Source of the DNA: a virus
Taxonomy: Duplodnaviria > Heunggongvirae > Uroviricota > Caudoviricetes
Direction: 5' to 3' (one strand)
DNA: 64,000 nucleotides
IMG/VR virus record: IMGVR_UViG_3300029656_000140
In this document: one piece after another, positions 45,073 through 58,681 of the stretch
How the letters are laid out: each line of letters opens with the position of its first letter
How positions within the stretch are numbered: the stretch's first letter is position 1
Translations under genes and position numbers: made by a program
The notes under the pieces: model-generated
Told to the model about the DNA's origin: nothing
The model's database searches: none
The model's input: the letters and a program-made list of their open reading frames with translations, nothing else

Positions 45073-45554
45073 GCCTGCACCTCCTCGATCATCCGCTGGG
45101 CGGCATCCTTATCCATGCATTCCTTCAGCGCACCTTCGAGGATGTGCATCGGGAAGTGGAATGCCTTGTAGCCGTCATGCAGGACTTTGTAGTAATACCG
45201 GCTCGGTGAGCGGCGTCCGAAGTCGTTCTCCATGATGTAGACCATTGCGGTCACCATCTCCGGCTCTGCCCCTTCCCGGAGCAGTTCGATGTTCAGGTCT
45301 TCCTTGCGGTAGTAGTTCGGGTAGCCCTCATAGAGGTCGAGGTTTCCTTCGTCCCTTTCCGAGATCTCCCACACCAGAACCGGCGTATTCTTCTTCGGGT
45401 TCGGCGCGATGGTAGCGCAGCCCCGGAACAAAAGCTCCCAGCCGGCCAGCACCGCCTGTCCTGCGATTCGGGCATCCGGACACCGGTATGCCATCTGCTC
45501 TACCGACAGGTTGCTGCCGTAGGCAATGTAGTATTTCTTGTTCTTCATATTCAT
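45069..45554 (-). CDS. gamma-glutamyl cyclotransferase (GGCT/AIG2-like) family protein 1
   Basis: YYIAYGSNLSVEQM...AGWELLF...VLVWEISERDEGNLDLYEGYPNYY is the GGCT/AIG2 signature. Confidence 0.75.
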   Translation of the reverse strand: MNMKNKKYYIAYGSNLSVEQMAYRCPDARIAGQAVLAGWELLFRGCATIAPNPKKNTPVLVWEISERDEGNLDLYEGYPNYYRKEDLNIELLREGAEPEMVTAMVYIMENDFGRRSPSRYYYKVLHDGYKAFHFPMHILEGALKECMDKDAAQRMIEEVQA

Positions 45555-45594
45555 TCGCTCCCTTCAAGCTCTGTTTTCTTCCGCTCTTGTCTGG

Positions 45595-45645
45595 CGGTAT
45601 GGTATATATCACTCTTTTGCCCTGATTTATCAAGGCCGATGAGTT
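45595..45645 (-). promoter_or_regulatory. promoter cassette copy 7 (subtype B: GGCCTTGATA...AGAGTGATATAT)
   Basis: The minus strand reads GGCCTTGATAAATCAGGGCAAAAGAGTGATATATACC. Confidence 0.5.
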
Positions 45646-45686
45646 TCATATCCTGCACAATGTTTTCTGCCTGTGATCGTGTACTT

Positions 45687-46217
45687 TTACACCATCCGCA
45701 GTTTCTTCAGATACCGGACGGCTTCTGTTCGTCCGATACTGGCGGCAAGCCCTCGCTTCAGTGTGTCTGTCGGAAACTCCCAATCGCTGTATCCTCCACA
45801 GAGCAAATCGAAATACTCGGCATCCGGGCAGCCAAGCTGCCGCTCCTCGTGCATCACATAGGCCATGCAGGTCTTCGGCTTCTTCATGCGGTTACCGCTC
45901 ATGTTCCAGACGGGAAGCTGGAACTGCTTCTTGTAGTAGTACCGCGGGAAGCCCTCGTACCGGTCCAGCAGAAGCTCATCGTATTCCGAGAGTTTCCAAA
46001 CCACAGCCGGTACGCTTTCGTTGGCATCCTGCTCGATGGTAGCGTAGCTCCCGGTCTTACTCTTCTTGAACAGGAGCCGGTAGCCGTAGATCTCAGTCAC
46101 ACCGACCGGCACTGCATAGGGGCATCTCCGTCCCATCCGTTCCATGTCGAGGTTGCTTCCGTAGGCAAGATAGAACTTGGATGGCGTCCGGCTGATCATT
46201 TCAAACTGCTCATTCAT
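45687..46217 (-). CDS. GGCT/AIG2-like family protein 2 (paralog)
   Basis: FYLAYGSNLDMERM...YGYRLLF...AVVWKLSEYDELLLDRYEGFPRYY. ATG at 46217 follows the RBS GGGAGGACGG. Confidence 0.75.
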   Translation of the reverse strand: MNEQFEMISRTPSKFYLAYGSNLDMERMGRRCPYAVPVGVTEIYGYRLLFKKSKTGSYATIEQDANESVPAVVWKLSEYDELLLDRYEGFPRYYYKKQFQLPVWNMSGNRMKKPKTCMAYVMHEERQLGCPDAEYFDLLCGGYSDWEFPTDTLKRGLAASIGRTEAVRYLKKLRMV

Positions 46218-46449
46218 CCGAACCACCGTCCTCCCTGCCCATAAATTCCACACCCTGAAAATCTTCCTTTTCAAGTTCGATCTGGCTGTCCTGCCACCAG
46301 TCCTCCGCCATGCGCTCGGCTTCCTGGACGGTTGGCTCTTTCATTTCGGATTCATACACCGTGATGGTTCTCTGGTAGGTTTCGGTGATGGTCACCTTGA
46401 ATGCCCTTCCCATCTGGGTGATTTCATTTTTTACCGTGCTTTTTTTCAT
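46210..46449 (-). CDS. DpnD/PcfM-like small protein
   Basis: FKVTITETYQRTITVYESEMKEPTVQEAERMAEDWWQDSQIELEKEDFQGVEF matches the DpnD/PcfM pattern. Confidence 0.65.
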   Translation of the reverse strand: MKKSTVKNEITQMGRAFKVTITETYQRTITVYESEMKEPTVQEAERMAEDWWQDSQIELEKEDFQGVEFMGREDGGSDE

Positions 46450-46516
46450 AATCCTGCACCTCCTTCTACCACCTCAAGGGCGGTTTCCCGCCCAAAAGGT
46501 GCCCGTGCATTCCGGC

Positions 46517-47452
46517 TTATTTGTTCCGCCAGGATGCGTTGCCCTCCATGTTCCGCAGAAGGATTTCCCTTGCCGTTGCAAATTCCTCACCGATGAATCC
46601 CAGCCTCAGCATCCAGCACCGCATTGCGTATTTGTCGTTGTCGGTCTGCTGGGGTCTTGGGCTTGCCGTTCTGACCATCTTGGCAAGCTGGCTCATTGCA
46701 AGGCAAAGCTGGATGTAGGCTTTCATCTCACCGGCATGCAGTCCGTTGCGCTTTCCATCCGCAGGGTCGGCAAATTGGAAAAGCCGAAATTCAATGGTTC
46801 CCTTTGTGAAAGTGGCATGCAGGTTCAGCATGTGGTATCGGCTTGAATTGTAGTGTTGGCTTCTGCCGTAGTCGGCTCCATTGCCCTCGTACCAGATGTC
46901 TGCAAGCTGGCTCATGGTGGTCGGCTTCTCGCGGTTCAGCCGTTCAAGAAAGCGGTGGTTGACCACCTGGCAATAATGTCCGGTGCGCCCCGCATCGATG
47001 CGGATGGCTCTGCCAATCTGTCGCTCATGCGCCGCCATGATGTTTACCAGATTCCGCAGGGTCTTTGCAGTGTGGTCGCCTTTTCCGATGTGAATGTGGA
47101 CTCCGCAGCCGCGACTTGGTCCACTTTTTCCTCCTGCCTTGCGGAGCAGCCGGATGATGTCCTGCAGGGTTTCGATGTCCTCGTAGATGAGGATCGGGGT
47201 GACCAATTCGCATTTCTCAGCGTCCGGTCCGTTGATGCTCACATCCCTCTGGAACTTCCAAACTCTGCCCTGCTGGTCTTTGCAAGCCCAGCTGGAATAT
47301 CCGTACTCGCTGGCGGCATTCCATGCTCTGGTTCCGAAGTATTCGGCAACCTTTCTGGCAGCCTTTTCTCTGGTGATGTTGTTCATCTCGATCTCAACCC
47401 CGATGGTCTGCTTCTTCATGGCTTCAATCTGCTCTCTCGTTTTATCGTTCAT
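46517..47452 (-). CDS. amidoligase (GCS2/glutamine-synthetase-like carboxylate-amine ligase, Amidoligase_2-type)
   Basis: IGVEIEMN (GxExE strand), CGVHIHIG and GTIEFRLF are hallmarks of the family. ATG at 47452 follows the RBS AAAGGAGAA. Confidence 0.75.
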   Translation of the reverse strand: MNDKTREQIEAMKKQTIGVEIEMNNITREKAARKVAEYFGTRAWNAASEYGYSSWACKDQQGRVWKFQRDVSINGPDAEKCELVTPILIYEDIETLQDIIRLLRKAGGKSGPSRGCGVHIHIGKGDHTAKTLRNLVNIMAAHERQIGRAIRIDAGRTGHYCQVVNHRFLERLNREKPTTMSQLADIWYEGNGADYGRSQHYNSSRYHMLNLHATFTKGTIEFRLFQFADPADGKRNGLHAGEMKAYIQLCLAMSQLAKMVRTASPRPQQTDNDKYAMRCWMLRLGFIGEEFATAREILLRNMEGNASWRNK

Positions 47453-47489
47453 GGTATGTTCTCCTTTGCTTTTTCCTTGTTTTCCGTTT

Positions 47490-47550
47490 CGGTATGTGCA
47501 TATTACCGTCTTACGCACACGATAGCAAGGCCATAAAAGAACATATATTC
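47490..47550 (-). promoter_or_regulatory. promoter cassette copy 8
   Basis: The minus strand reads ATGGCCTTGCTATCGTGTGCGTAAGACGGTAATATGCAC. Confidence 0.6.
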
Positions 47551-47683
47551 GACAAATATGAGGTCGAAAGATCGTGTACATTTCTGCGGTTTATCCGCTT
47601 GATAATGTACATTTTCAGAGTTATTATCGGTACAATGGAAGAGGGTCTCGCATATTTCCGGCCCCCATTGGGGACTTGGGAGC

Positions 47684-48775
47684 TTACGCTCCCGCCTCCA
47701 GCATCTGCGCCGTGTCTGCCCCACAGTCGGGCTGTGTCGGCTGGTTTTCTTCCTGTTCGACCGTTTCCCCTGTGGCAGGATCGCTGTTCTGTGCCGCCAG
47801 TTTCGCGGCTTTCAGGGCATCCCGTTTTGCCTTTTCCCTTGCAAGAAACTTCTGTGCTTCCTCATCCGTGCGGAAAGCCGCATGGCCGGAAAGGTTCTCC
47901 ATGAGGATCTTGCGTGTCTCTTTGAAATCCGGACCGTTCATCCCCAGCCGCAGGAGCCATGTGCGGAGTGCGTATTTCTCATTCTCATCGTTGACATCCT
48001 TTGCCTGGATACGTTTCTGGCTGATGGCCTGCTGGTTCATCAGGATGGCAAGGTGGCCAAAAGCCGTTAGGTGATCATAGTCGGAAGCCGTCGGGAATCC
48101 TGTGAAGGAAACCTTTTCTTCTGTGATCACCAGACCTTCCATCGCAGTTCCGCACTGTGCTTCGTAACTCTTAAGCGCCTCGATGAAGTTTGCCACCGTG
48201 TAAGTACAGCTGTCATCCCGCAGTGTTTCGACCAGATCGGTTTCCACATGGAAGTGCCCACCCGTTGCCTTGCTGATGAGTCGGCCCCGGCTGTAGATGA
48301 GGTTGACCAGATTGCGAAGGCTCACGCCGTTATGCTGGCTGGTGGGGAAAGCAAGTTCCAGATCCAGCGGCACTTCTTCCGGCTGGTCTTCTGCTTCCGG
48401 CTGCTCTTCGCTTTCCGATTCCTCTGCATCCGGCTCATCCTCTGTTGCACCATCCTCTGCCGTATCATCCGGCTCCTCTTCGGTCACAGGCTCCGCTGTC
48501 AAATTCTCAGTCGGCTCTGTGTTTTCCGGCTGGTCATCCGTGCTCTCAATGCTCTCGCCGCCGCGGATCAGTCCCTCATTCAGCAGGGTCGTCAGCAGCT
48601 CGGCATCTGCATTCTCCGGCTCGACCAGAAGATTGCCGTCCCGGTCGATGGTGTAGTTGCCGATGTCATAAGCATACAGCGGTGCTCTGGTGTAGTAAGG
48701 ATGGATACCCGTCAGCTCCTCCATGCGATTTGCAAGTGTCTTACGGTCTGCTATGTTCAATTCAAATTTCAACAT
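47684..48775 (-). CDS. divergent amidoligase paralog with ~80-aa acidic low-complexity insertion
   Basis: The C-terminal half aligns with 46517-47452 (NEKYALRTWLLRLGMNGPDFKETRKILMENLSGHAAFR versus NDKYAMRCWMLRLGFIGEEFATAREILLRNMEGNASWR). It carries GGHFHVE. RBS AAAGGGG. Confidence 0.6.
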   Translation of the reverse strand: MLKFELNIADRKTLANRMEELTGIHPYYTRAPLYAYDIGNYTIDRDGNLLVEPENADAELLTTLLNEGLIRGGESIESTDDQPENTEPTENLTAEPVTEEEPDDTAEDGATEDEPDAEESESEEQPEAEDQPEEVPLDLELAFPTSQHNGVSLRNLVNLIYSRGRLISKATGGHFHVETDLVETLRDDSCTYTVANFIEALKSYEAQCGTAMEGLVITEEKVSFTGFPTASDYDHLTAFGHLAILMNQQAISQKRIQAKDVNDENEKYALRTWLLRLGMNGPDFKETRKILMENLSGHAAFRTDEEAQKFLAREKAKRDALKAAKLAAQNSDPATGETVEQEENQPTQPDCGADTAQMLEAGA

Positions 48776-48829
48776 AATTCATTGCCCCTTTCGTTTTCTT
48801 CTGTTTTTGTGCATCCCGATGTTCTTTTC

Positions 48830-48880
48830 GGTAGCACATATATCACTCTGAACCGGTCAAATATCAAGGCCATTTCCCGA
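48830..48880 (-). promoter_or_regulatory. promoter cassette copy 9 (subtype B)
   Basis: The minus strand reads GGCCTTGATATTTGACCGGTTCAGAGTGATATATGTGC. Confidence 0.5.
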
Positions 48881-48999
48881 TATTCTTCATGTTCGACTAA
48901 TTACACAAGGGACTGCGAAATCTGTTGTGTAAATAGGACCAATATGTAAGCCCACCATATCACCAGGTCGCTTTCTACCTAGTAATATAGCGGGCCAGT

Positions 49000-51129
49000 T
49001 TATTCTTCCAGACCTGCACACCATGCGATGCCGGCCAGAACAAAAAATGCGTTGGCCAGGCATATGCCGTTGCCCCAGATACGGTACTCTGCCGAATCTG
49101 TATACGGGTCAGCCAGCCATTTCCGGATCTGTTTCTCCGTTTTCGGCTTCTTGGCGTGGGTCACGATCTTGCGGTGCGTTTCAAACGCATCTGCCCAGAA
49201 CGTCAGCTCTTCTTCGGTCGGATCTTCTGTTCCAAGGTTCCGGCACCACCAGTCCGGGAAGCCCTGCAGTCTGGCACACTCGGTCGGTGTCAAGCGGCGG
49301 ACGGTATAGGTCACAGGTGCAGGCTGTGCTTCCGGGTTGTCGATGACCAGACGGTCATTGAAAACGTCCTGCCCGTTAAAGCCGCTGGGATGTGCCCCGG
49401 TTGCCACGGTTCCCATGACACCCTCGTTCAGATGCGGCACCGGCGCGATGGTGGTCGGGTCTTTGTAGTCCCGTGCCATCAGGGTCGGTGCGACTTCTTT
49501 TTCCACCTGCATATAGGAGCCGGTGGTCATGGCATACACATCCTCCGGTGCGCAGACTGCATGGCGGTCAGTGGCATCCAGTGTAAAGCAGACATCCTCA
49601 TTGACGCCATCTCCCTGCGGACCGTTCTCATCCTTGCGGCCGATCATGTTGCCCTGCAGGACGAAGGTCTGCTGCTTCATCCCCGGCTCTGCTGCAAGTG
49701 CCGCTGACTTCTCTCCCAGATCCCGGACTTCATCCCTCTGGTTCTGGGTAAAGGCGACCGGCTCTACCACACAGATACCGCCCTGATTGCAGGTCGGATC
49801 TCCACCACTGCGGTCTAGTGTCCGGGAGGTCTCCGCTTCATAGAAGCCGCTATGCGGATTATCGGACATCATGGAGTGGCTGGCTTTAGAGCAGACACCG
49901 TAGCATTTCGGAACGAACAGTGTCTGGTCGTTGTTGCAGCCGAGGGTAGCTGACTTTTCTTCCTGCCAGATAGCGCCCTTGCCACCGCCTTCACACCCGG
50001 AACGGATCTTCAATGTGACCGCCGGAGAGTTTTCAACTTCTTTCACCGGGCTTTCCACTGAATTTTCAACAGCGTCCATGACCATCGGGACATTACCGCC
50101 ACCCGTACCACACCGGCTTGTCAGTGTCTGTACCTTACCGTCCTCGGAAATCTTCACCCGGCTGTCCGCAGGATGATTTTCCAGTGCGATGGCGGCCGGC
50201 ACGACACCAGCCCGGAGGGTCGGTGACCGTTCCTCTTCGTATCCAATGCTTCTGGCATTTGCGGAATGCTCGGTACAGAAACCAGCGGCTTCCATAACAC
50301 ACGGCGGATGATGTGCCTCCGCACGGAGGGTGGCTGTCACCTCTTCCGTCACATCCATCCTCTCTACGCCCTGATCGTTCAGACAGAGCCGTCCTCCTGC
50401 TCCACTGCAGCCTGTCTCTCCAGCGCCGCTTTCAGCACCGGCGGCAGCTCTTTGCCACGCACGGAAGCTCTCCGCAGAATACCGAGACACGCCTTCGGAC
50501 TCAAATAATACCTTTGGGGCACTCTGGTCTGCAAAATCTGCGACAAGGTAGATACGTTTTCTTCTTTGGGGAACGCCCCACCATTGTGCATCAAAAACTC
50601 GATACGCGACGCTCCATCCGTCTCCCACGTAGTAGTCAGCGTCGGGCCATCCTTTCTTCTCAGGCGCAGGCACCGAGGCGGACGGTTCTTTAACACCGAT
50701 GACGGCTTCGAGGACTGCTTTGAAGTCCTGTCCTTTGTTTGAGGAGAAGGCCCCTGGCACATTCTCCCACACGATAAATCTTGGTTTTTCTCCATTGGTC
50801 TTACACCTCATTTCCTTCACGATTCGGATTGCTTCGTAAAACAGGCTGGACCGTGAACCATCCAGACCGTCCCGCTTACCCGCGATGGACATATCCTGAC
50901 AGGGACTGCCAAAAGTGATGATGTCTACAGGAGGTAGGTCTGCACCGCTGATGGCAGACACATCTCCATAATGCTTCACCTGCGGCAGACGCTTGGTCGT
51001 GACCCGGATGGCAAACGGCTCGATCTCACTGCTCCACACCGGAGTGATCTGCCCGGTCAAAAGCCCGCCCAATGGAAAACCCCCGGAGCCATCAAAGAGG
51101 CTGCCGAGGGTCAGCTGTTTATTCTCCAT
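49000..51129 (-). CDS. DNA (cytosine-5)-methyltransferase with a very large variable/target-recognition insertion
   Basis: Motif I LFDGSGG, motif IV GSPCQDMS, motif VI ENVPG, and C-terminal RLTPTECARLQGFPDWW. About 400 aa lie between the ENV region and the C-terminal motifs. Confidence 0.85.
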   Translation of the reverse strand: MENKQLTLGSLFDGSGGFPLGGLLTGQITPVWSSEIEPFAIRVTTKRLPQVKHYGDVSAISGADLPPVDIITFGSPCQDMSIAGKRDGLDGSRSSLFYEAIRIVKEMRCKTNGEKPRFIVWENVPGAFSSNKGQDFKAVLEAVIGVKEPSASVPAPEKKGWPDADYYVGDGWSVAYRVFDAQWWGVPQRRKRIYLVADFADQSAPKVLFESEGVSRYSAESFRAWQRAAAGAESGAGETGCSGAGGRLCLNDQGVERMDVTEEVTATLRAEAHHPPCVMEAAGFCTEHSANARSIGYEEERSPTLRAGVVPAAIALENHPADSRVKISEDGKVQTLTSRCGTGGGNVPMVMDAVENSVESPVKEVENSPAVTLKIRSGCEGGGKGAIWQEEKSATLGCNNDQTLFVPKCYGVCSKASHSMMSDNPHSGFYEAETSRTLDRSGGDPTCNQGGICVVEPVAFTQNQRDEVRDLGEKSAALAAEPGMKQQTFVLQGNMIGRKDENGPQGDGVNEDVCFTLDATDRHAVCAPEDVYAMTTGSYMQVEKEVAPTLMARDYKDPTTIAPVPHLNEGVMGTVATGAHPSGFNGQDVFNDRLVIDNPEAQPAPVTYTVRRLTPTECARLQGFPDWWCRNLGTEDPTEEELTFWADAFETHRKIVTHAKKPKTEKQIRKWLADPYTDSAEYRIWGNGICLANAFFVLAGIAWCAGLEE

Positions 51130-52390
51130 CAGCGACCTCCCTTTCCGGCTCGAAGGTCGCCACTTCCTCGAACTTCAGCTTCTGACTGTCACGGATGACA
51201 TACACATCATCGTAGTGACCCTCGCTGTGTTCGATATAACGCTTCACGATCACATCCACGAACTTCGGGTCCAGCTCGATGCCTCGGCACACACGGTCGG
51301 TTTCTTCGCAGGCGATCAGGGTAGAACCGCTGCCAAGGAACGGATCAAGGACGATACCGTTTGTCATAGTGGAATTGCGGATCGGATAGCTCATCAGGCC
51401 GATGGGCTTCATGGTCGGATGGTCCTTGTTGGACTTCGGCCGGTCATACTCCCAAATGGTCGTCTGCTTTCGGTCGGAATACCACTGGTGCTTTCCCTTC
51501 TGCTTCCAGCCGTAGAGACACGGCTCGTGCTGCCACTGGTAAGGACTTCGTCCCAGCACCAGAGCATTCTTCTTCCAGATACAGCACCCGGACAGGTAGA
51601 ACCCGGCATCCTTGAATGCCTTTCTAAAGTTCAGCCCTTCCGTATCTGCATGGAAGATGTAGATGGAGCCGTCATCCGCCAGATGACCATGCATCTGCTG
51701 GAATGCTGCCAGAAGGAACTGGTAGAATTCCGAGTCACCCATGTTGTCGTTCAGGATCTTGCCAGCCGTTTCTTCCACATCCACGTTATAAGGGGGATCG
51801 GAAAGTACCAGATTTGCCTTGGTGCCGTCCATCAGGGTATCGTAGCATTCTGGCTTGGTGGAATCGCCGCACAGAACGATGTGCTTACCCAGATGCCAGA
51901 GGTCGCCCTCTTTGGAGAAGCACGGCTGCTTCAGCTCCGATTCCACATCGAAGTCATCTTCCTTGACCTCTTTGCTGTGGACCTTGTTGAACAGCGTCTC
52001 GATCTCAGGCGGGTCAAAGCCTGTCTTACCGAGGTCGAAGTTGGAATCTTCGATGTCCTTGAGCAGGTCAGCCAGCAGAGAATCATCCCATGCACCCGTG
52101 ATCTTGTTGAGTGCGATGTTCAGGGCTTTCTCCCTGGTCTTGTCGATGTCCACCACCGCACAAGGCACTTCGGTGTATCCCAGCTCCATCGCTACGGTCA
52201 GTCTCTGGTGACCACCGATGATCGTCATGTCGGCATTGACCACCAAAGGATCTGCGAAACCGAACTCCGTGATGGAATTCTTGATCTTCTCGTACTCTTT
52301 ATCCCCCGGCTTCAGCTTTTTCCGGGGATTGTATGCAGCCGGCTTGAGTACAGACACCGGCAGCATCTTTAGTTCAGCAGTCGCTTTCAT
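51119..52390 (-). CDS. ParB-like nuclease domain fused to N6-adenine/N4-cytosine DNA methyltransferase
   Basis: The N-terminal ParB/Srx fold (KPAAYNPRK, IIGGHQRL) is followed by DPPY and the SAM-binding motif VLDPFLGSGST. Confidence 0.85.
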   Translation of the reverse strand: MKATAELKMLPVSVLKPAAYNPRKKLKPGDKEYEKIKNSITEFGFADPLVVNADMTIIGGHQRLTVAMELGYTEVPCAVVDIDKTREKALNIALNKITGAWDDSLLADLLKDIEDSNFDLGKTGFDPPEIETLFNKVHSKEVKEDDFDVESELKQPCFSKEGDLWHLGKHIVLCGDSTKPECYDTLMDGTKANLVLSDPPYNVDVEETAGKILNDNMGDSEFYQFLLAAFQQMHGHLADDGSIYIFHADTEGLNFRKAFKDAGFYLSGCCIWKKNALVLGRSPYQWQHEPCLYGWKQKGKHQWYSDRKQTTIWEYDRPKSNKDHPTMKPIGLMSYPIRNSTMTNGIVLDPFLGSGSTLIACEETDRVCRGIELDPKFVDVIVKRYIEHSEGHYDDVYVIRDSQKLKFEEVATFEPEREVADGE

Positions 52391-52411
52391 GTAAGCCCTC
52401 CCGTTTTAGAT

Positions 52412-52633
52412 TCACATGCGTATGACCCCGGAGAACGGCACGAAAAAGGAGCCGAACAAAAAGCCCGACTCCATCTCATCTCCATCTTCCTGCGGCTGTT
52501 CAGCCATCTCGCACCATTCCGGGTTTTCCCCGTTCACGGATGCCAGAACCTTATCTTCCGCATCGTCAATCGCATGTACACAGATACCCCCGGTGTTGAA
52601 CAATGGATACACACCGATAATTTTCTCACTCAT
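52412..52633 (-). CDS. small hypothetical protein
   Basis: ATG at 52633 follows the RBS GGAGGCGG. Confidence 0.4.
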   Translation of the reverse strand: MSEKIIGVYPLFNTGGICVHAIDDAEDKVLASVNGENPEWCEMAEQPQEDGDEMESGFLFGSFFVPFSGVIRM

Positions 52634-52925
52634 TCCTGTCCGCCTCCTTCTTCCTGCCCCGGTTGGCACAAGCCCGGCTGCAATATTTTCGTTCCAACCC
52701 GTACTGATGCCGGTAGGAAAACTCCCTGCCGCACACCGGGCAGATCTTCGACCGTACGGTCTTCCAGTTCTCCGGTTTCGGATGGGTGTTGTTCCACCGT
52801 GACCGGCATTCTGGTGAGCAGAATTTCCGTGGTCTGCCTTTATGATTCGGCACAATGGCTGTACCGCACTGAGGGCAGAACGAAAAAGCCATGTCCTTGA
52901 TCATCTCAGCCGTATAATCTTCCAT
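52626..52925 (-). CDS. double zinc-ribbon protein
   Basis: CPQCG...CSPEC and CPVCG...CSRAC. Confidence 0.5.
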   Translation of the reverse strand: MEDYTAEMIKDMAFSFCPQCGTAIVPNHKGRPRKFCSPECRSRWNNTHPKPENWKTVRSKICPVCGREFSYRHQYGLERKYCSRACANRGRKKEADRNE

Positions 52926-53139
52926 CTACCCTCACCTCACTCTCATTTTTCGCCGTTTCTTCGGCAGTTTCTTAGAAAAATCTCATAATTCATACGAAAA
53001 GCGGCGAAGTGGAAAACGGCCCCGTCCCGCCTGGTTGAATTGTTGTTGCGGCGGCCGATCTTCGCTCGCCCTCGCTCCTCCCGGAACAAGCTAAAATGTG
53101 CGAAAGCTCCCTGTTTACGAGAGGTTTCACACACTTTGG

Positions 53140-53180
53140 TTCATTTCGGGGAAAAAGAATGGCATCGAAACCGAAGCTCC
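53140..53180 (-). terminator. terminator-like hairpin + U-tract after HNH, inside a ~400-bp non-coding region
   Basis: The transcript GGCAUCGGAGCUUCGGUUUCGAUGCC is followed by AUUCUUUUUCCCC. Confidence 0.45.
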
Positions 53181-53326
53181 GATGCCTGTACATTTTCCTG
53201 TTTCATTTTGCGCCGTTAATCCTCTGACCCCCGGCCTATGAATTTTGCGGTTTTTCACAGAAAAGGGCGCAACGGTCTCCGTGTGACTTCACCGTAGAGA
53301 AGTGACCCCGGCCCCCGGCGGGGGTG

Positions 53327-53686
53327 TCAGTAGGTGTAGGTCGGGTTGATGTCTTCGGTCAGCGTCTTCTTATCGTGACAACTCTTGCAGAGAGACTGCC
53401 AGTTGTTCTGGTCCCAGAAAAGTTTCTGGTCTCCACGGTGCGGAACGATGTGATCCACCACCGTTGCCCGGACGTACTTGCCCTGCTTGGCACACTGCAC
53501 ACAGAGCGGATGAGCTTCCAGATACAACTTTCTGACTTTCTGCCACCGCCTGTTGTATCCACGCTTCGCTGCCGGGCGGGTCACCTCTGGATGGAGAGGC
53601 AGGTGCTTCTCACAGTAGAGCCGGCCGGCTTCCACCAGCTCTGGGCAGCCGGGGTGATGGCACGGTGTCTTTGGTCTGTATGGCAT
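53327..53686 (-). CDS. HNH endonuclease (phage packaging-associated type)
   Basis: CVQCAKQGKYVRATVVDHIVPHRGDQ...LCKSCHDKKT. Confidence 0.85.
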   Translation of the reverse strand: MPYRPKTPCHHPGCPELVEAGRLYCEKHLPLHPEVTRPAAKRGYNRRWQKVRKLYLEAHPLCVQCAKQGKYVRATVVDHIVPHRGDQKLFWDQNNWQSLCKSCHDKKTLTEDINPTYTY

Positions 53687-53689
53687 GGG

Positions 53690-54757
53690 TCAGTCCTCCC
53701 ACGGAAGACCAGCCTTACCGAAGTGACCGTAAGCACTGACCTTGTTGTAGTCTACATCCAGCAGTCCCAGACGCTGGATAATCCCCTGCGGGGTCAGATC
53801 GTAGCTGTCATGGACATAGGCTTCGATGAAGTCAATGGACTGGTGTTCCGTACCGAAGCACTCCACCGACACCCCCACCGGCTGCACCACGCCGATAGCG
53901 TAAGCCAGCTGGACTTCGCACTTGTCAGCGTAGCCCGCCTGCACGATGTCCTTGGCAATCTTCCTCGCCATGTATGCTGCGGAACGGTCCACCTTGGTGG
54001 GATCTTTACCGCTCAGAGCGCCACCACCCATGCGACCGATACCGCCGTAGGTATCGCACGCCAGCTTTCGACCAGTCACACCACAGTCGGCGTAGCTGCC
54101 GCCCAGCACGAAACGACCGGTCGGATTGACGAGCTTCGTAAAGTCACCGTCCAGACCGTATTCGCAGGCGGCCAATACCATCATGGATTCGATGATGTGC
54201 CGGAAGTCGCTGACCTCCACATCCGGGCTATGCTGCACGGAACAGAGGAAGGTGGTGATACGACCGGTGTCGTAATCGTAGCTGACCTGTGCCTTGGCAT
54301 CTGCACGGAACATCTTAGACGGATGGTTCTTCAGCAGTTGCAGGAACTTGGTGGCGACCATATACGGGATCGGCATCTGCTCTGCCGTCTCGTTGGTAGC
54401 GTAGCCATACATGATTCCCTGGTCACCGGCTCCGCCCTTATCCACACCAAGTGCAATGTCCGGGGACTGCTTGTCCACCAGAATGCCAATGCGAAGAAGC
54501 TCGGTCAGGTTCCACCCCAGCTTTTCGGCACCGATGCGGTTGAACACATCGTGGACGATCTGGTTGTAGTTTGGCCGATAGTCGGTGGTGACCTCACCGG
54601 CAATAAAAAGCTGGCTCTTTTTCAGCAGACACTCGATTGCCACACGGGCGTTCTTGTCATGCTGAAGGATGTCGGTCACAATGCCATCTGCGATCTGGTC
54701 ACAGATCTTATCGGGATGGCCATTGCTGACCTGTTCACAAGTGATGATCTTACTCAT
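53690..54757 (-). CDS. metK: S-adenosylmethionine synthetase (MetK), compact phage-encoded version
   Basis: SNGHPDKICDQIAD, GAGDQG and GGGALSGKDPTKVDRSAAY are MetK signatures. It is 355 aa. Confidence 0.85.
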   Translation of the reverse strand: MSKIITCEQVSNGHPDKICDQIADGIVTDILQHDKNARVAIECLLKKSQLFIAGEVTTDYRPNYNQIVHDVFNRIGAEKLGWNLTELLRIGILVDKQSPDIALGVDKGGAGDQGIMYGYATNETAEQMPIPYMVATKFLQLLKNHPSKMFRADAKAQVSYDYDTGRITTFLCSVQHSPDVEVSDFRHIIESMMVLAACEYGLDGDFTKLVNPTGRFVLGGSYADCGVTGRKLACDTYGGIGRMGGGALSGKDPTKVDRSAAYMARKIAKDIVQAGYADKCEVQLAYAIGVVQPVGVSVECFGTEHQSIDFIEAYVHDSYDLTPQGIIQRLGLLDVDYNKVSAYGHFGKAGLPWED

Positions 54758-55026
54758 GTTCTGTCCTCTCTTTCATGTATCACAAAGCAGGCCGTTTTTG
54801 CCCTTGCCCACAAATAGGCTCCCACAAAGACTGCCTGCCCTGTCTCTGTTCATGGTTTCCGTTCATTCTCTTATTTTCCTTTCTTCTCAACTCATGTAGC
54901 ATGTAGCAACCATGTAGCTGAATTTTATATAAGAAAGCTATAAAAGAAAGTAATAATAAAAAAGGTTATGAAATCTCGGCTACAAACCAGCTACATGCTA
55001 CAAAGCACCCAAAATCAGAAAAAAGG

Positions 55027-57456
55027 TCACAAAAGACTGTCCTTTGGCTTATATGCGTCCTGTACCGTCAGGTCTTCCGCTCCAGCTTCTACTTCCTTGA
55101 ACTTGCAGTCCATGATCAGCGTAGTCTGTCCGCCACCGCCTTTGGGGCGCTTTCGGACCACTTTGAAATGCACGCCGATAGCATTTTTAAAGTTCTTCTG
55201 ATTCTCTGAGGAATACCCGTTCTCCTCACACCACTTTGTGTACAGCTGGTATGCTGCTGCCGTCCGAAGTTCCGACCCATCCTCTTTTTCAAGCCACGCC
55301 TCAATGAACTGCCCGATCCGATCAGAATCATCCTTGTAATCTTCCGTTGCTTTCGTGACAGCCTGCGGAAGTTCCAAACCCCGCTGGCAGAACTTTTTGT
55401 ACCCTTCCAGACACCAGTTGAAAATACCTGACAGGTTCTCCGGCTTCGCAAACTGCCCCTTCAGCCCCTGGTCCTGTTCTCCCTCTTCAAAATGACGGTT
55501 AAATGGGATGATCTTCAGTCGGCCGGATTGGAACAAGGTCATATCATTGACATTAGGCAGGTAGTTCGTATTGATAAAAATCTTGAACACCGGCACAAAA
55601 TCAAAGCTGTTCTCATTTAGGAATCGGGCGTTGATGGTATCGTTGCCGGTCATTCTTTTTACGAGAGCTGCATTAAATGTGATCTTCTTCTCCGGCTCAG
55701 AGATATTTACAAATCTGAAGCCGACCAGACGAGCCACTTCTTCCGAAGGTCCGCCTGTGTTCCCACCACGGAATTTAGCTGCCAGCATATCCGGATTCGA
55801 TGTCTTTCCATAGTCGCCCATGATCTTCAGGAAGGTTTCCATTGCAGTGCCTTTGCCGTTTCGGGAAGTGGCACCGTAAAGGATAAACATACACTCCTGC
55901 GAGGTATCTCCTGTCAGGGCGTATCCCAAAGAACGCTGAAGGAAGTCTGCCAGATCTGCATCTCCACACATGACCTCCTTGATAAACGAGTGCCAGCGTG
56001 GACAGTCTGCATCCGGGTCATAGGTAATACCGGATTCCATTGTGAGATAATCCTCCGGCCGATGTTCCCTGAATTCCAGTGTCCGCATATCCAGCGTTCC
56101 ATTTTTGCAATTAAAGAAATACTTGTTCCTGTCGAATGCCTGCATGGAGATTGGATACACGGACATGGCATCTTTCAGCATCGTTTCCCGATTCTTACGC
56201 AGCTGCAGTTTTCGGACACGGTCGATGAACCGCTTCCTGGCATCCTCTTCGGTGATCGTCAAAGCAAACACATACAGCTTGTCAGCCAGCAGCTTTGCCA
56301 GTTCCGATACCTTGAGATTGCCTTTGTCCGGCCGCCAGACAGATCCGTCATAGACATACCAGCCTTTACGTTCACTGTTGTACCGGGCAATCTGCTTGAA
56401 ATAATCCGCAAACATATTGCCCATGCCGATCTCATTTCTGCCATACCGGGCATTTGTGTGCGGTGCCATTTCCTCCAGCGTGATCGTGATCTTGGTGAGA
56501 TCCGGCTGGAATTCGACATAGTCATCCTCATCCAGCTTGGAAAACTCCTCATCCACGATATCCTGTGCGTTGACCGGCATATAGACGGCCGAACAGGTAT
56601 TGACGGTATTGCGGATAGAGATCGCGCCGTAGGTCGAACCAGCCTGTTTTCTGTCCCACTTGTCGCGCATCAGGCCAGAGGTACGGAAAATGCGGTCCAT
56701 CTGCTCCTCATCACAGCCACACCAGAATGCCAGAATAGACAGCAATGCCATATCTGCATCCGACTGGCTACCGTAAAGGTCTTCCCAGTCACCGGCAAAG
56801 AGTTTTTTGAACTTTTCCGAGTTGCTGGCTTCATTGGCGTGCGCGATGACAGCCTCGTCGTCCAGGTACGAATGGTGCTGGAAATGTGTCTGCTGCACCT
56901 GCTTGTTTCGCTTCATCAGCGTGTCCAACAGTGTCGTCATTGCGGTTTCATCGTTCGGGATCTCACCTGTGCGGTAAACATCTCCCGTCACTGTGACGAA
57001 GCGGTTTGTCGCACCGGGCATATACACTTCCAGACCCTTGCTGCGGTTATTGATGTAGTAGACCGTCTTGTCATAGACGTAGTCTTCCGGCACACAAAAG
57101 AAACCTCGCAGTCCTTTGCCGGACGGAGATTTTTCCACGTAAGCCGTAGGAAAGATGGAAAGGACGGTATCCGCCGTATCGTTCAGCGTACCATCCTCCC
57201 GGATACAGTGGTCGATATCAAAAGCTCCGATTCCGTTGCCAACAGCAATACCGATACCGTCATAACCGCCCATCGCATAGGTGACAAGGGTATTCTTGAA
57301 ATCCGAAAATGTACGCAGGTCATTGATCTTTGCCCGTTCTCCCGTTGCCGGATTGTACGGCATCTTGGTCTTCTGGCCATTACGCTTTTCAAACTTCCAG
57401 ACACAGAAGCTGCAGGTCGTTTTCAGCTTGCCCGGAATGTTCTTGATGTCCATCAT
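55027..57456 (-). CDS. DNA primase/helicase (AEP prim-pol N-domain + D5_N + SF3 helicase; P4-type)
   Basis: The AEP motif GAFDIDHC and the Walker A YGATSRNGKGT are present. It is ~800 aa. Confidence 0.85.
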   Translation of the reverse strand: MMDIKNIPGKLKTTCSFCVWKFEKRNGQKTKMPYNPATGERAKINDLRTFSDFKNTLVTYAMGGYDGIGIAVGNGIGAFDIDHCIREDGTLNDTADTVLSIFPTAYVEKSPSGKGLRGFFCVPEDYVYDKTVYYINNRSKGLEVYMPGATNRFVTVTGDVYRTGEIPNDETAMTTLLDTLMKRNKQVQQTHFQHHSYLDDEAVIAHANEASNSEKFKKLFAGDWEDLYGSQSDADMALLSILAFWCGCDEEQMDRIFRTSGLMRDKWDRKQAGSTYGAISIRNTVNTCSAVYMPVNAQDIVDEEFSKLDEDDYVEFQPDLTKITITLEEMAPHTNARYGRNEIGMGNMFADYFKQIARYNSERKGWYVYDGSVWRPDKGNLKVSELAKLLADKLYVFALTITEEDARKRFIDRVRKLQLRKNRETMLKDAMSVYPISMQAFDRNKYFFNCKNGTLDMRTLEFREHRPEDYLTMESGITYDPDADCPRWHSFIKEVMCGDADLADFLQRSLGYALTGDTSQECMFILYGATSRNGKGTAMETFLKIMGDYGKTSNPDMLAAKFRGGNTGGPSEEVARLVGFRFVNISEPEKKITFNAALVKRMTGNDTINARFLNENSFDFVPVFKIFINTNYLPNVNDMTLFQSGRLKIIPFNRHFEEGEQDQGLKGQFAKPENLSGIFNWCLEGYKKFCQRGLELPQAVTKATEDYKDDSDRIGQFIEAWLEKEDGSELRTAAAYQLYTKWCEENGYSSENQKNFKNAIGVHFKVVRKRPKGGGGQTTLIMDCKFKEVEAGAEDLTVQDAYKPKDSLL

Positions 57457-58016
57457 GCCTGTGCCTCCCTTCCCATACAAGCCTGCATCGCAAACTGCTT
57501 TTTAACCGCAGCTTCGATCTCCTGCTTTTTCCTGGCCGAGGTCACACGGCAGAGCCGGTTGCACAGAACCATCTTGTCAATGGTCGTGATCTGCTCCACC
57601 AGCAGAATGGATTCTTCCAGTCCCTCATCCCGGAGCATTTCGCAGTCTCTCCCGGTGACCGGAATGTGTACCGGCAGCTCCAGCTTCTTCAGCTTGGAAC
57701 TCATCGGGATTACCGTGATAATCGGAGAATTGCGGTTTGCCATATCGTTGCTGATAACCAGCACCGGGCGGTTTCCGCTCTGCACCGAAGTGCCATAATG
57801 ATTCCCCAGTTCTGCAAACCAGATCTCATACTGCTTCGGTATCTTTGGTACCGGCCATCTGGTAAGCGGCATCTCCTGAAGCAGCACTCTATTAGGTGCC
57901 GGCTGACAGGAGGCTACTGCCCTTTTCTTGGTCTTCCCTCGCTGATTGATGTATTTATTAACGTGGATCTTTCGTCCATGTGCTGCTGACCGGGCATTCT
58001 TTTTCTTTCTCCCCAT
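57453..58016 (-). CDS. PemK/MazF-fold protein with basic N-terminal extension
   Basis: EIWFAELGNHYGTSVQSGNRPVLVISNDMANRNSPIITVIPMSS matches the MazF/PemK core. RBS GGAGGTGA. It is the first gene after promoter 58170-58205. Confidence 0.6.
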   Translation of the reverse strand: MGRKKKNARSAAHGRKIHVNKYINQRGKTKKRAVASCQPAPNRVLLQEMPLTRWPVPKIPKQYEIWFAELGNHYGTSVQSGNRPVLVISNDMANRNSPIITVIPMSSKLKKLELPVHIPVTGRDCEMLRDEGLEESILLVEQITTIDKMVLCNRLCRVTSARKKQEIEAAVKKQFAMQACMGREAQA

Positions 58017-58086
58017 TGGGATCTCACCTCCAGTTTGATAGCAAAAAGGCCGCTGAAGATGGAATCCTCATAGCGGCCACAAATGT

Positions 58087-58140
58087 AAAAAGGCATAAAA
58101 ACACCGGATGCTTTCCAGTATCTTTATGCCTTTGTTTTCC
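58087..58140. terminator. bidirectional hairpin terminator
   Basis: ggcataaa...tttatgcc with an inner stem ccggatgctttcc, flanked by T-runs on both strands. Confidence 0.55.
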
Positions 58141-58169
58141 TATTTTCCTAGTTTAAAGTATAGCAAAAA

Positions 58170-58205
58170 ACCGATGTACAGTTAAGACGGAAAAGTTCAA
58201 AAACG
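58170..58205 (-). promoter_or_regulatory. promoter of the replication operon (TTAACT, 17 bp, TGcTATACT extended -10)
   Basis: The minus strand reads TTAACTGTACATCGGTTTTTTGCTATACT. Confidence 0.5.
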
Positions 58206-58226
58206 GTTCATTTCCGTTCGTAAAGT

Positions 58227-58673: not shown

Positions 58674-58681
58674 ATTCCGTA

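What the first reader, a model, noticed from the sequence alone, without database searches (positions are those of the whole stretch)
49000..54757. Phage-encoded SAM synthetase (MetK) beside two DNA methyltransferases and an HNH nuclease
A compact but motif-complete MetK lies in the same transcription unit as a ParB-N6/N4 methyltransferase and a C5-cytosine methyltransferase. The C5 enzyme carries an unusually large (~400 aa) variable/target-recognition insertion. Encoding the SAM-producing enzyme next to two SAM-consuming orphan methyltransferases suggests the phage boosts methyl-donor supply so that its DNA is rapidly self-methylated against restriction. That is the opposite strategy to the SAM-degrading enzymes of T3-like phages. 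The oversized C5-methyltransferase variable region may specify several target sites.
Basis: partly seen in the sequence, partly recalled or inferred. Interest (0 to 1): 0.6.

Follow-up and report, generated by a model that had tools for sequence, protein, structure and literature searches.

The report
Phage SAM synthetase beside DNA methyltransferases
A temperate gut-bacterium phage carries its own SAM-making enzyme next to two DNA methyltransferases, an arrangement already described in other phages; the less ordinary part is that its cytosine methyltransferase holds about nine short swappable cassettes that probably read several DNA target sequences.

Summary
On the minus strand lie a 355-aa MetK with all three MetK domains and every catalytic residue, a 119-aa HNH endonuclease, two small genes, a ParB-N/N6_N4 methyltransferase and a 709-aa C5 methyltransferase with about 400 aa between motifs VIII and IX.

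The same gene order was described in Streptococcus prophage Phi1207.3 in 2014, with the same methyl-donor idea. For Ca. Heliusvirales gut phages, the lineage of this window's nearest annotated relatives, Dcm is reported in 67% and MetK in 58.9% of genomes, again linked to restriction evasion. About 60 related IMG/VR contigs keep the module. No function has been tested.

"One transcription unit" is unproven: a 401-nt gap with a terminator-like hairpin separates MetK-HNH from the methyltransferases. The HNH most likely serves DNA packaging.

What I add concerns the C5 variable region. It is an array of about nine 33-39-aa cassettes, each with a Thr-Leu core. Near-identical relatives (698-821 aa) differ by whole cassettes. 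More distant homologues carry the cassettes in different combinations and orders. This resembles the tandem target-recognition domains of multispecific Bacillus phage methyltransferases, on a larger scale. Specificity is untested and the AlphaFold model of this region is uninformative.

The parts
53690..54757 (-). Short-form phage MetK (S-adenosylmethionine synthetase), 355 aa
   Evidence: Three MetK Pfam domains. TIGR01034 equivalog at 391.5 bits against a 309.4 cut-off. phrog_1569 matched end to end, E 1.7e-133. The GHPDK, GAGDQG, DAK, D..G.TGRK, DTYGG and GGGA.SGKDP.KVDRS motifs align with E. coli MetK. It shares three internal deletions and a short C-terminus with the Streptococcus and NatCom phage MetKs.
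53327..53686 (-). HNH endonuclease, 119 aa, starting 3 nt after the MetK stop
   Evidence: PF01844 E 9e-10. phrog_144 E 5e-38. CxxC...H-N-H...CxxC is visible in the sequence. The same MetK-HNH pairing occurs in Phi1207.3, NatCom_42228 and 12/111phiA.
52926..53326 (-). 401-nt gap without a convincing gene; terminator-like hairpin at 53186-53161 followed by a T-run
   Evidence: Sequence read. Terminator-like site found, where 20 such sites were found against 13.7 expected, so the evidence is weak. No Rfam family matched.
52626..52925 (-). Zinc-ribbon protein, 99 aa, with two CxxC...C pairs
   Evidence: phrog_1271 and phrog_2308, E about 1e-17. Weak zinc-ribbon Pfam hits. Conserved at this position in relatives.
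52412..52636 (-). Small acidic ORF, 74 aa; its ATG overlaps the zinc-ribbon stop (ATGA)
   Evidence: Sequence. The same ORF is found in relative L009 at 10605-10829. No family hit.
51119..52390 (-). ParB-N domain fused to a beta-class N6/N4 amino-methyltransferase, 423 aa; DPPY motif, so probably m6A
   Evidence: PF02195 and PF01555. phrog_498 E 1e-186. Nearest solved relative is the adenine methyltransferase DpnA, E 9e-13. SDPPYNV precedes DPFLGSGST in the sequence.
49000..51129 (-). C5-cytosine DNA methyltransferase, 709 aa, overlapping the upstream methyltransferase gene by 11 nt
   Evidence: PF00145 E 2e-41. TIGR00675 at 142 bits against a 100.65 cut-off. Motifs I-X in order. The catalytic domain is modelled at pLDDT above 90. 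Near-identical 709/710-aa proteins are abundant in gut metagenomes, and one is named by NCBI 'DNA cytosine methyltransferase [Blautia obeum]'.
49312..50493 (-). Variable region of the C5 methyltransferase (residues 213-606): about nine cassettes of 33-39 aa with T-L cores at residues 267, 304, 335, 372, 395, 437, 481 (A-L), 516 and 549
   Evidence: Cassette list. Leave-one-out HMM test. Whole-cassette indels of 32, 39 and 40 aa among relatives whose N-terminal domain is mostly 90-100% identical. Cassettes in different combinations and orders among homologues. Single cassettes matching otherwise unrelated phage methyltransferases. pLDDT below 50 in the AlphaFold model.
49090..49257 (-). About 55-aa helical insertion between motifs IX and X of the C5 methyltransferase (residues 625-680)
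   Evidence: Helices at 639-657, 665-673 and 678-686, with block-mean pLDDT of about 87-97 over 631-680. Absent from Javan51 and M.HhaI in the alignments.

Best explanation
This is a conserved self-methylation module of a temperate siphophage of gut Clostridia. The phage resembles Ca. Heliusvirales, and its host is probably Blautia-like. The module sits between the replication genes and the packaging genes.

Inferred mechanism:
1. During lytic growth the phage expresses a short-form MetK that makes S-adenosylmethionine from ATP and methionine. No SAM riboswitch was detected in front of the gene, so it may escape the feedback that controls host metK in Firmicutes.
2. SAM is consumed by two orphan methyltransferases. 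One is a ParB-N-fused beta-class amino-methyltransferase, probably N6-adenine. The other is a C5-cytosine methyltransferase.
3. Together they methylate newly replicated phage DNA before packaging, so that the next host's restriction enzymes do not cut it.
4. The C5 enzyme recognises several targets. Its variable region is an array of about nine TRD-like cassettes, each with a Thr-Leu core, and these cassettes are gained, lost and reshuffled between related phages.
5. The HNH endonuclease probably acts with the P27-type terminase in DNA packaging rather than with the methyltransferases.

Shown here: gene identities, intact catalytic motifs, conserved synteny and the cassette structure. Inferred: enzyme activities, timing of expression, the effect on the SAM pool, the methylation targets and the anti-restriction role.
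For: - MetK has all domains and catalytic residues and passes the equivalog cut-off.
- No Rfam family, including SAM riboswitches, was found in 40000-60000.
- Both methyltransferases have complete motifs.
- The order MetK-HNH-Zn-ParB-MTase-C5 is kept in about 60 IMG/VR contigs.
- The same order occurs in NatCom_42228, where MetK is 61% identical, and in Streptococcus Javan51 and Phi1207.3, where MetK is 55-58% identical.
- Many relatives carry a third methyltransferase in the same slot.
- Whole-cassette indels occur among near-identical enzymes. A 12-nt direct repeat flanks one cassette.
- Cassettes occur in shuffled order in homologues.
- The T-L/T-V cores resemble those of the bispecific M.SPbetaI.
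- P27-type TerS, TerL, portal, ClpP protease and HK97-type capsid are all present. From my own knowledge (Kala et al. 2014), this gene set goes with packaging HNH proteins.
- Published statements of the same hypothesis: PMC4260502 and bioRxiv 10.1101/2023.08.29.555303.
- A review states that Bacillus temperate phages array multiple target recognition domains in one polypeptide (PMC12707154).
Against: - No activity, expression or methylation data exist for this phage.
- A 401-nt gap with a terminator-like hairpin separates MetK-HNH from the methyltransferases.
- AlphaFold gives pLDDT below 50 across the whole cassette region, so there is no structural support.
- Similarity of the cassettes to an experimentally defined TRD (M.SPbetaI) is not significant: pairwise E 0.22, and hhalign aligns only the catalytic domain.
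- Two of nine cassettes fail the leave-one-out test, and two scores are inflated by overlap.
- The genome still strongly avoids GGATCC, CCCGGG, CCWGG, GGWCC and GGCC, which would be unnecessary if those sites were self-methylated.
- Some MetK-bearing phages have no adjacent methyltransferase, for example IMGVR 517045.
- In S. agalactiae the prophage metK affected host aggregation and biofilm (PMC8223999), which points to a different role.
- The HNH gene lies about 13 kb from the terminase genes, not next to them.
Confidence: 0.6

Rival explanations
1. MetK is a lysogenic-conversion or auxiliary metabolic gene. It changes host physiology (SAM-dependent quorum sensing, polyamines, cell-surface or biofilm traits) and does not feed the phage methyltransferases.
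For: Deleting and complementing the prophage metK of S. agalactiae 12/111phiA altered chain length, aggregation, glycocalyx and biofilm (PMC8223999). Viromics papers list metK as an auxiliary metabolic gene. Some phage MetK genes have no methyltransferase next to them.
Against: Here metK lies inside the replication-to-packaging block on the lytic strand, 3 nt from HNH. It is not in a moron or lysogeny region. The adjacency to one to three methyltransferases is conserved in lineages whose MetK proteins are only 55-76% identical to this one. The S. agalactiae complementation was partial and confounded by secondary mutations, as that paper itself reports.
Confidence: 0.15
2. The long C5 variable region does not confer multiple specificities. 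It is a flexible or scaffolding region with one functional TRD, the remaining cassettes being inactive 'pseudo-domains', or it gives relaxed, near-nonspecific methylation.
For: AlphaFold predicts the region with pLDDT below 50. There is no significant match to the TRDs of M.SPbetaI. From my own knowledge, inactive pseudo-TRDs are documented in Bacillus phage enzymes (Lange et al. 1991). Continued avoidance of many GC-rich palindromes argues against very broad protection.
Against: Cassettes are conserved at 95% identity or more across hundreds of metagenome copies. They are gained or lost as precise 32-40-aa units that keep the reading frame. They occur in many orders and combinations. Each keeps the T-L core typical of C5 TRDs. 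A dispensable linker would not be expected to behave this way.
Confidence: 0.3
3. The methyltransferases serve phage DNA transactions, such as marking replicated DNA for packaging or regulating late genes, as Dam does for P1 pac sites. They do not serve restriction evasion, and MetK merely ensures cofactor supply for that.
For: The module sits immediately before the packaging genes and next to an HNH packaging-type nuclease. The ParB-N domain suggests site- or nucleotide-dependent DNA engagement, and PMC12704722 reports this fusion as phage-enriched with unknown role. A review notes that orphan phage methyltransferases may regulate viral cycles (PMC12707154).
Against: The number of methyltransferases in the slot varies (two or three) and the TRD cassettes turn over rapidly among close relatives. 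That pattern fits an arms race with diverse host restriction systems. A fixed internal regulatory signal would not be expected to vary so.
Confidence: 0.15

Closest known systems
Streptococcus pyogenes prophage Phi1207.3, orf29-orf33 (PMC4260502), and the related Javan, phiD12 and phiNJ3 Streptococcus prophages
   Same: Same gene order and sizes: SAM synthetase (353 aa), HNH (121 aa), ParB-DNA methylase (410 aa), C5 methylase, lying between the replication genes and the terminase. The short MetK form has the same deletions. The same methyl-donor hypothesis was stated in 2014.
   Different: Their C5 methylase is 388-417 aa with a short variable region, against 709 aa here. MetK is only 55-58% identical. 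The hosts are Bacilli, not Clostridia. There is no amidoligase/GGCT cluster downstream.
Ca. Heliusvirales gut phages, e.g. Clostridium phage NatCom_42228 (bioRxiv 10.1101/2023.08.29.555303)
   Same: Same module with the same neighbours: MazF-like gene, MetK, HNH, small genes, ParB-MTase, long C5 methyltransferase (640 aa), amidoligase, GGCT. The paper reports Dcm in 67% and MetK in 58.9% of genomes and links both to restriction-modification evasion.
   Different: MetK is 61% identical. The C5 enzyme lacks three of the window's cassettes. GenBank annotates the MetK as 'peptidase' and the long C5 enzyme as 'hypothetical protein'. The cassette architecture was not described.
Multispecific C5 methyltransferases of Bacillus temperate phages (M.SPRI, M.Phi3TI/M.SPbetaI, M.Rho11sI, M.H2I; Trautner laboratory)
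   Same: These are orphan phage C5 enzymes with an enlarged region between motifs VIII and IX. That region is made of tandem target-recognising domains of about 40 aa, each with a T-L/T-V core (PMC12707154 and PMC8936443; M.SPbetaI sequence). From my own knowledge, domains can be deleted or swapped.
   Different: The Bacillus enzymes are 439-503 aa with 2-4 TRDs (sizes and numbers from my own knowledge). M.SPbetaI has 185 aa between motifs VIII and IX, against 418 aa and about nine cassettes here. Sequence similarity in the variable region is not significant. No specificity data exist for the gut-phage family. The Bacillus phages are not known to me to carry MetK beside the methyltransferase, and SPbeta mtbP has none nearby.
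T3/T7-group SAM lyase ('SAMase')
   Same: It is also a phage manipulation of the SAM pool connected with restriction and BREX defence (bioRxiv 10.1101/2023.02.27.530186; PMC12707154).
   Different: The direction and logic are opposite. It destroys SAM and inhibits host MetK to disable SAM-dependent host defences. The protein is unrelated.

Membership tests
MetK / methionine adenosyltransferase (TIGR01034; PF00438+PF02772+PF02773) | Three MetK domains in order, scoring above the curated cut-offs | tested here: met
   All three Pfam domains are above gathering scores. TIGR01034 equivalog at 391.5 bits against 309.4.
MetK / methionine adenosyltransferase (TIGR01034; PF00438+PF02772+PF02773) | Catalytic and ligand-binding residues: GHPDK (His14/Asp16/Lys17), Glu42, GAGDQG (Asp118), Lys165, Asp238, Arg244/Lys245, Lys265/Lys269/Asp271 (E. 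coli numbering, from my own knowledge) | tested here: met
   All are conserved in the alignments to E. coli MetK. They fall in invariant columns of A4.
MetK / methionine adenosyltransferase (TIGR01034; PF00438+PF02772+PF02773) | Methionine adenosyltransferase activity | not testable with these tools
   Needs an enzyme assay or metK complementation.
C5-cytosine DNA methyltransferase (PF00145 / TIGR00675) | Motifs I (FxGxG), IV (PCQ with the catalytic Cys), VI (ENV), VIII (QxRxR), IX and X in canonical order | tested here: met
   Found at residues 12, 76, 122, 188, 611 and 686. PF00145 E 2e-41. TIGR00675 at 142 bits against 100.65. Catalytic domain pLDDT above 90.
Multispecific phage C5 methyltransferases (SPR/Phi3T/SPbeta type) | Enlarged variable region between motifs VIII and IX, in an orphan phage-encoded enzyme | tested here: met
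   418 aa here, against 185 aa in M.SPbetaI. No restriction endonuclease domain was found among the ORFs tested in 45000-58000; the only nuclease there is the small HNH.
Multispecific phage C5 methyltransferases (SPR/Phi3T/SPbeta type) | Variable region built of contiguous, separable modules of about 40 aa, each with a T-L/V/I core | tested here: met
   Nine cassettes of 33-39 aa. Whole-cassette indels of 32, 39 and 40 aa among close relatives. Shuffled order among homologues. Leave-one-out similarity for 5-7 of 9 cassettes.
Multispecific phage C5 methyltransferases (SPR/Phi3T/SPbeta type) | Sequence homology of the modules to experimentally defined TRDs | tested here: inconclusive
   M.SPbetaI 356-375 (FTVNTIDRHGV) aligns with window 510-529 (FTLDATDRHAV) at E 0.22 only. 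hhalign aligns the catalytic domain alone. The cassette HMM gives E 0.19.
Multispecific phage C5 methyltransferases (SPR/Phi3T/SPbeta type) | Each module confers methylation of a distinct DNA target | not testable with these tools
   Needs 5mC methylome profiling of the cloned enzyme and of cassette-deletion variants.
ParB-N fused beta-class N6/N4 DNA methyltransferase (PF02195+PF01555) | N-terminal ParB-N domain, then an amino-methyltransferase with motif IV (D/S-PPY) before motif I (FxGxG) | tested here: met
   PF02195 at residues 6-89 and PF01555 at 193-382. SDPPYNV lies upstream of DPFLGSGST. phrog_498 E 1e-186. The fusion is reported as phage-enriched (PMC12704722).
Packaging-associated HNH endonuclease of HK97-like phages (Kala et al. 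2014, from my own knowledge) | Small HNH protein in a phage with P27-type TerS, TerL, portal, ClpP-type protease and HK97 capsid | tested here: met
   PF01844. PF05119, PF03354/PF20441, PF04860, PF00574 and PF05065 are all found at 34073-39978.
Packaging-associated HNH endonuclease of HK97-like phages (Kala et al. 2014, from my own knowledge) | HNH gene adjacent to the terminase genes or cos site | tested here: not met
   HNH ends at 53327 and TerS starts at 39978, about 13 kb away. The cos position is unknown.

The most novel reading that the evidence does not exclude
The 709-aa enzyme belongs to an unrecognised, very abundant family of hyper-multispecific C5 methyltransferases in gut Clostridia phages. 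These would carry the largest known arrays of target-recognition cassettes: about 9 here and up to about 12 in relatives of 821 aa. The cassettes would be exchanged combinatorially between phages by recombination at short junction repeats, giving each phage a different multi-target 5mC shield. The co-encoded feedback-free MetK would be needed to meet the resulting methyl demand.
Probability: 0.3. Interest if true: 0.6.

Novelty: new member of a known kind. Interest (0 to 1): 0.33.

Why it matters
The MetK-plus-methyltransferase module is already in the literature as an untested hypothesis, so this copy adds little by itself.

The cassette array would matter more if confirmed. It would extend the tandem-TRD principle from two to four domains, as in the Bacillus phages, to about a dozen. 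It would offer a natural library linking about 35-aa modules to DNA motifs, useful for predicting and engineering C5 methyltransferase specificity. It would also help explain host range and 5mC patterns in a very common gut phage lineage. Those 5mC methylomes have been largely missed, because SMRT sequencing detects 5mC poorly (PMC10477858).

Tried and rejected
1. Self-BLASTP of the variable region found no internal repeats. The cassettes are too short and divergent, so I used anchored HMMs instead.
2. AlphaFold2 with a 59-sequence alignment modelled the catalytic domain well but left residues 213-600 below pLDDT 50. I ran no fold search, because matches on that region would be meaningless.
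3. I compared the enzyme with the bispecific M.SPbetaI, fetched from NC_001884, by BLASTP, hhalign and the cassette HMM. TRD-level similarity was not significant.
4. I suspected a frameshift between the zinc-ribbon ORF and the overlapping 147-aa ORF. I rejected this: there are two separate small genes with an ATGA overlap, and the same pair occurs in L009.
5. An Rfam scan of 40000-60000 for a SAM riboswitch or other RNA in the gaps found nothing.
6. 'Phage' metK hits from Helicobacter and Acinetobacter records are host-flank genes next to ndk, tktA and similar genes. I did not count them as phage MetK.
7. PHROG scans of ORFs at 40164-44713 for other SAM-using enzymes, such as radical SAM or other methyltransferases, found none.
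8. Literature searches for a characterised long gut-phage C5 methyltransferase or an experimentally tested phage MetK-methyltransferase link found none. The only experiments on a prophage metK concern host phenotypes (PMC8223999).


Full report
**What is in the sequence**

The window is a temperate siphophage with essentially all genes on the minus strand. It has a serine recombinase at 1695-3683. It also has a P27-type small terminase, large terminase, portal, ClpP-type protease and HK97-type capsid at 34073-39978, and a D5/NrS-1-type primase at 55027-57480.

Read in the direction of transcription, the flagged region contains these genes:
- MetK, 54757-53690, 355 aa.
- An HNH endonuclease, 53686-53327, 119 aa, starting 3 nt after MetK.
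- A 401-nt gap.
- A zinc-ribbon protein, 52925-52626.
- A 74-aa ORF whose ATG overlaps the zinc-ribbon stop, 52636-52412.
- A ParB-N/N6_N4 methyltransferase, 52390-51119, 423 aa.
- A C5 methyltransferase, 51129-49000, 709 aa, overlapping the previous gene by 11 nt.

**MetK**

The protein has the three MetK Pfam domains and passes the NCBIfam metK equivalog cut-off, 391.5 bits against 309.4. It aligns over its full length with E. coli MetK at E 1.6e-92. The GHPDK, GAGDQG, DAK, D-x-G-x-TGRK, DTYGG and GGGA-x-SGKDP-x-KVDRS segments are all conserved. "Motif-complete" therefore holds.

"Compact" also holds. Relative to E. coli MetK, the protein lacks 5, 4 and 3 residues at three internal positions and has a short C-terminus. 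The Streptococcus phage Javan51 and Clostridium phage NatCom_42228 proteins share exactly these deletions. The longer MetK of Faecalibacterium phage FP_Brigit does not. The protein matches phrog_1569 end to end, a 346-position profile labelled "unknown function". This is therefore an established phage lineage of MetK rather than a recent host capture.

No Rfam family, including SAM riboswitches, was detected in 40000-60000. In Firmicutes the host metK is typically controlled by a SAM riboswitch (my own knowledge). On that basis a phage copy without one could escape feedback. This is inference.

**How widespread, and what is already published**

A tblastn search of 50,697 phage records finds the protein in 139 records, 90 of them Streptococcus phages, where it is already annotated as S-adenosylmethionine synthetase. 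The hits from Helicobacter and Acinetobacter records are host-flank genes.

Several published descriptions cover the same ground.
- Streptococcus prophage Phi1207.3 has orf29 (SAM synthetase, 353 aa), orf30 (HNH, 121 aa), orf32 (ParB-DNA methylase, 410 aa) and orf33 (C5 methylase, 388 aa). [quoted passage not shown]
- Javan51 has MetK, an adenine methyltransferase and a cytosine methyltransferase just upstream of the terminase genes.
- NatCom_42228, a member of Ca. Heliusvirales, has the order MazF-like, MetK (misannotated "peptidase"), HNH, small genes, DNA methyltransferase, a 640-aa "hypothetical protein" (the long C5 enzyme), amidoligase, GGCT. This is the same order as the window.
- The Heliusvirales paper reports Dcm in 67% and MetK in 58.9% of genomes. 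[quoted passage not shown]
- ParB-N/N6_N4 fusions are reported as enriched in phages and prophages (PMC12704722).

A scan of IMG/VR with the MetK found 402 related stretches. Nearly all of the roughly 60 loci among the best 80 with enough downstream sequence carry HNH, the zinc-ribbon gene, the ParB methyltransferase and the C5 methyltransferase in the same order.

It is nevertheless already in the literature, and I found no experimental test of it. The only experiments on a prophage metK concern host aggregation and biofilm in S. agalactiae (PMC8223999).

**Transcription unit and the HNH gene**

MetK-HNH and ParB-MTase-C5 each look translationally coupled. The 401-nt gap between the two pairs holds an 11-bp GC-rich hairpin followed by a T-run on the coding strand, at 53186-53161. 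The scan found 20 terminator-like sites against 13.7 expected, so this is weak evidence. Even so, a single transcription unit cannot be asserted.

The HNH protein matches phage HNH families (phrog_144, E 5e-38). It co-occurs with the terminase, portal, protease and capsid gene set that accompanies packaging HNH proteins (Kala et al. 2014, my own knowledge). I therefore read it as a packaging factor. It is not adjacent to the terminase genes, so that membership criterion is not met.

**The C5 methyltransferase variable region**

Motifs I, IV, VI and VIII lie in residues 12-193, and motifs IX and X at 611 and 686. Between motifs VIII and IX are 418 residues.

- *Not an outlier.* A full HMMER search of cluster representatives gives 3,994 proteins at E below 1e-30. 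Among the 86 best representatives with both motifs, the region spans 115-701 aa with a median of 314. Near-identical 709/710-aa copies are very abundant in gut metagenomes. One is named by NCBI "DNA cytosine methyltransferase [Blautia obeum]".
- *Cassette structure.* I count about nine units of 33-39 aa. Each has an acidic lead-in, a Thr-Leu core, often a Gly-rich loop, and a hydrophobic end. Examples are EEVTATLRAE, ERSPTLRAG, GKVQTLTSRCGTGGG, SPAVTLKIRSGCEGGG, EKSATLGC, ETSRTLDRSGG, EKSAALAAE, VCFTLDATDRH and EVAPTLMARDYK.
- *Similarity between units.* In a leave-one-out HMM test against 300 shuffles of the region, six units beat every shuffle and a seventh was reached by 2 of 300. Two of those scores are inflated by overlap with a neighbouring unit, and two units fail. 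At the DNA level, the T-L cores of U1, U2 and U9 share a 16-nt repeat.
- *Whole-cassette differences between close relatives.* The 45 distinct C5 proteins of at least 690 aa recovered from related viral contigs, mostly 90-100% identical in the N-terminal domain, range from 698 to 821 aa. They differ by precise blocks of 32, 39 and 40 aa, each carrying its own core: APPLAC, SGALIAT and ANTLNT. The 39-aa block is flanked in L009 by a 12-nt direct repeat, GCAGACCTT(T/C)GT, spaced 117 nt apart. The window has a single copy of this sequence.
- *Shuffling in distant homologues.* Among the 50%-identity representatives the same cassettes recur in many combinations and in different orders, for example U7-U8-U6, U5-U6-U1-U2-Xb and U8-U6-U3. 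Single cassettes also match otherwise unrelated phage methyltransferases, for example residues 365-410 at 59% identity in Faecalibacterium phage FP_Toutatis.

This is the behaviour described for the tandem target-recognising domains of the multispecific Bacillus phage methyltransferases (PMC12707154; PMC8936443).

The bispecific M.SPbetaI has 185 aa between motifs VIII and IX. It has two cores, SPTLTTMGGG and FTVNTIDRHGV, that resemble units U3 and U8.

**Limits of that inference**

- The similarity to M.SPbetaI is not statistically significant: E 0.22 pairwise, and hhalign aligns only the catalytic domain.
- AlphaFold2 models the catalytic domain at pLDDT above 90 but the whole cassette region below 50. 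Structure therefore neither supports nor refutes the TRD reading.
- Some cassettes may be inactive pseudo-domains.
- The genome still avoids several GC-rich palindromes strongly. Examples are GGATCC (0 observed, 12.5 expected), CCCGGG (1 vs 22.9), CCWGG (ratio 0.34), GGWCC (0.39) and GGCC (0.51). CCGG, by contrast, is abundant and not avoided (534 sites, ratio 0.98). Self-methylation, if it occurs, therefore does not cover everything. I did not control this composition against the host genome.

**Most likely mechanism**

I read this as a lytic-phase self-methylation module. MetK supplies SAM. The ParB-fused beta-class enzyme has a DPPY motif, and its nearest solved relative is the adenine methyltransferase DpnA, so it most likely makes m6A. 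The cassette-array C5 enzyme most likely methylates several cytosine targets. Progeny DNA would thus be protected in the next host.

Many close relatives insert a third methyltransferase (259 aa, PF01555) between the two. That fits a slot in which methyltransferase content turns over under selection from host restriction systems.

My confidence in the general reading is about 0.6. That the C5 enzyme has three or more specificities I put at roughly 0.45-0.5. That most cassettes are active I put at about 0.3.

**Novelty and score**

The headline finding, a phage MetK beside two orphan methyltransferases and an HNH gene, is a new member of a known and already interpreted module. The cassette architecture of the long C5 enzyme appears not to have been described, and GenBank records even call it "hypothetical protein". 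It is an enlarged variant of a principle known since the 1980s. Overall interest is modest at 0.33. It would be higher only if the cassette array proves to be a functional, combinatorially exchanged set of specificities.

Noticed in passing
window 45069-48775 (- strand): Directly downstream of the C5 methyltransferase lie four genes: an acidic 363-aa amidoligase-like protein (47684-48775), an Amidoligase_2 enzyme (46517-47581) and two AIG2/GGCT-like gamma-glutamyl cyclotransferases (45687-46274, 45069-45554). The amidoligase pair is syntenic with the methyltransferase module in about 50 IMG/VR relatives and in NatCom_42228. Their function is unknown. Whether they belong functionally with the methylation module was not examined.
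   Followed up: partly
whole window: Several restriction-type palindromes are strongly avoided. GGATCC is 0 observed against 12.5 expected, CCCGGG 1 against 22.9, AAGCTT 2 against 24.6 and CCATGG 1 against 22.3. CCWGG has a ratio of 0.34, GGWCC 0.39, GGCC 0.51 and CGCG 0.39. CCGG (534 sites, ratio 0.98), AGCT, TCGA and GCSGC are not avoided. The non-avoided sites could hint at which sites are self-methylated, but there was no host-genome control.
   Followed up: partly
L009 12106-12885 (and about 30 other IMG/VR loci): Many close relatives carry a third methyltransferase (259 aa, PF01555, DIPY motif) between the ParB methyltransferase and the C5 methyltransferase. The window phage lacks it.
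   Followed up: partly
window 52926-53326: This 401-nt stretch between HNH and the zinc-ribbon gene has no convincing gene. It contains a strong hairpin plus T-run at 53186-53161 on the coding strand and has no Rfam match. It could be a terminator, a regulatory RNA or a packaging (cos) site.
   Followed up: partly
window 49090-49257 (C5 methyltransferase residues 625-680): A confidently modelled three-helix insertion of about 55 aa lies between motifs IX and X of the C5 methyltransferase. It is absent from M.HhaI and from the Streptococcus phage homologue. Its role is unknown.
   Followed up: no
L009 14351-14362 and 14468-14479; window about 49654-49672: A 12-nt direct repeat, GCAGACCTT(T/C)GT (encoding QTFV), flanks the 39-aa cassette that is present in 29 of 45 relatives and absent from the window. 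This suggests cassette gain or loss by recombination at junction repeats.
   Followed up: partly
window 57453-58016 (- strand): A MazF-like toxin homologue (phrog_1936, E 4e-18) lies just upstream of the primase, with no obvious antitoxin identified. The same gene precedes MetK in NatCom_42228.
   Followed up: no
L001 (PV036444.1) and other NatCom records: The public annotation calls the MetK homologue 'peptidase' and the long C5 methyltransferase 'hypothetical protein'. PHROGs labels the phage MetK family phrog_1569 'unknown function'.
   Followed up: yes
L084 (Faecalibacterium phage FP_Brigit) 5001-9448: A longer MetK (392 aa, 44% identical) lies about 2 kb upstream of a protein with 'phage DNA adenine methylase-like' and GNAT-like domains (PF22555 + PF22559). 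This is another MetK pairing with a methylase-like protein, in an unrelated phage.
   Followed up: partly
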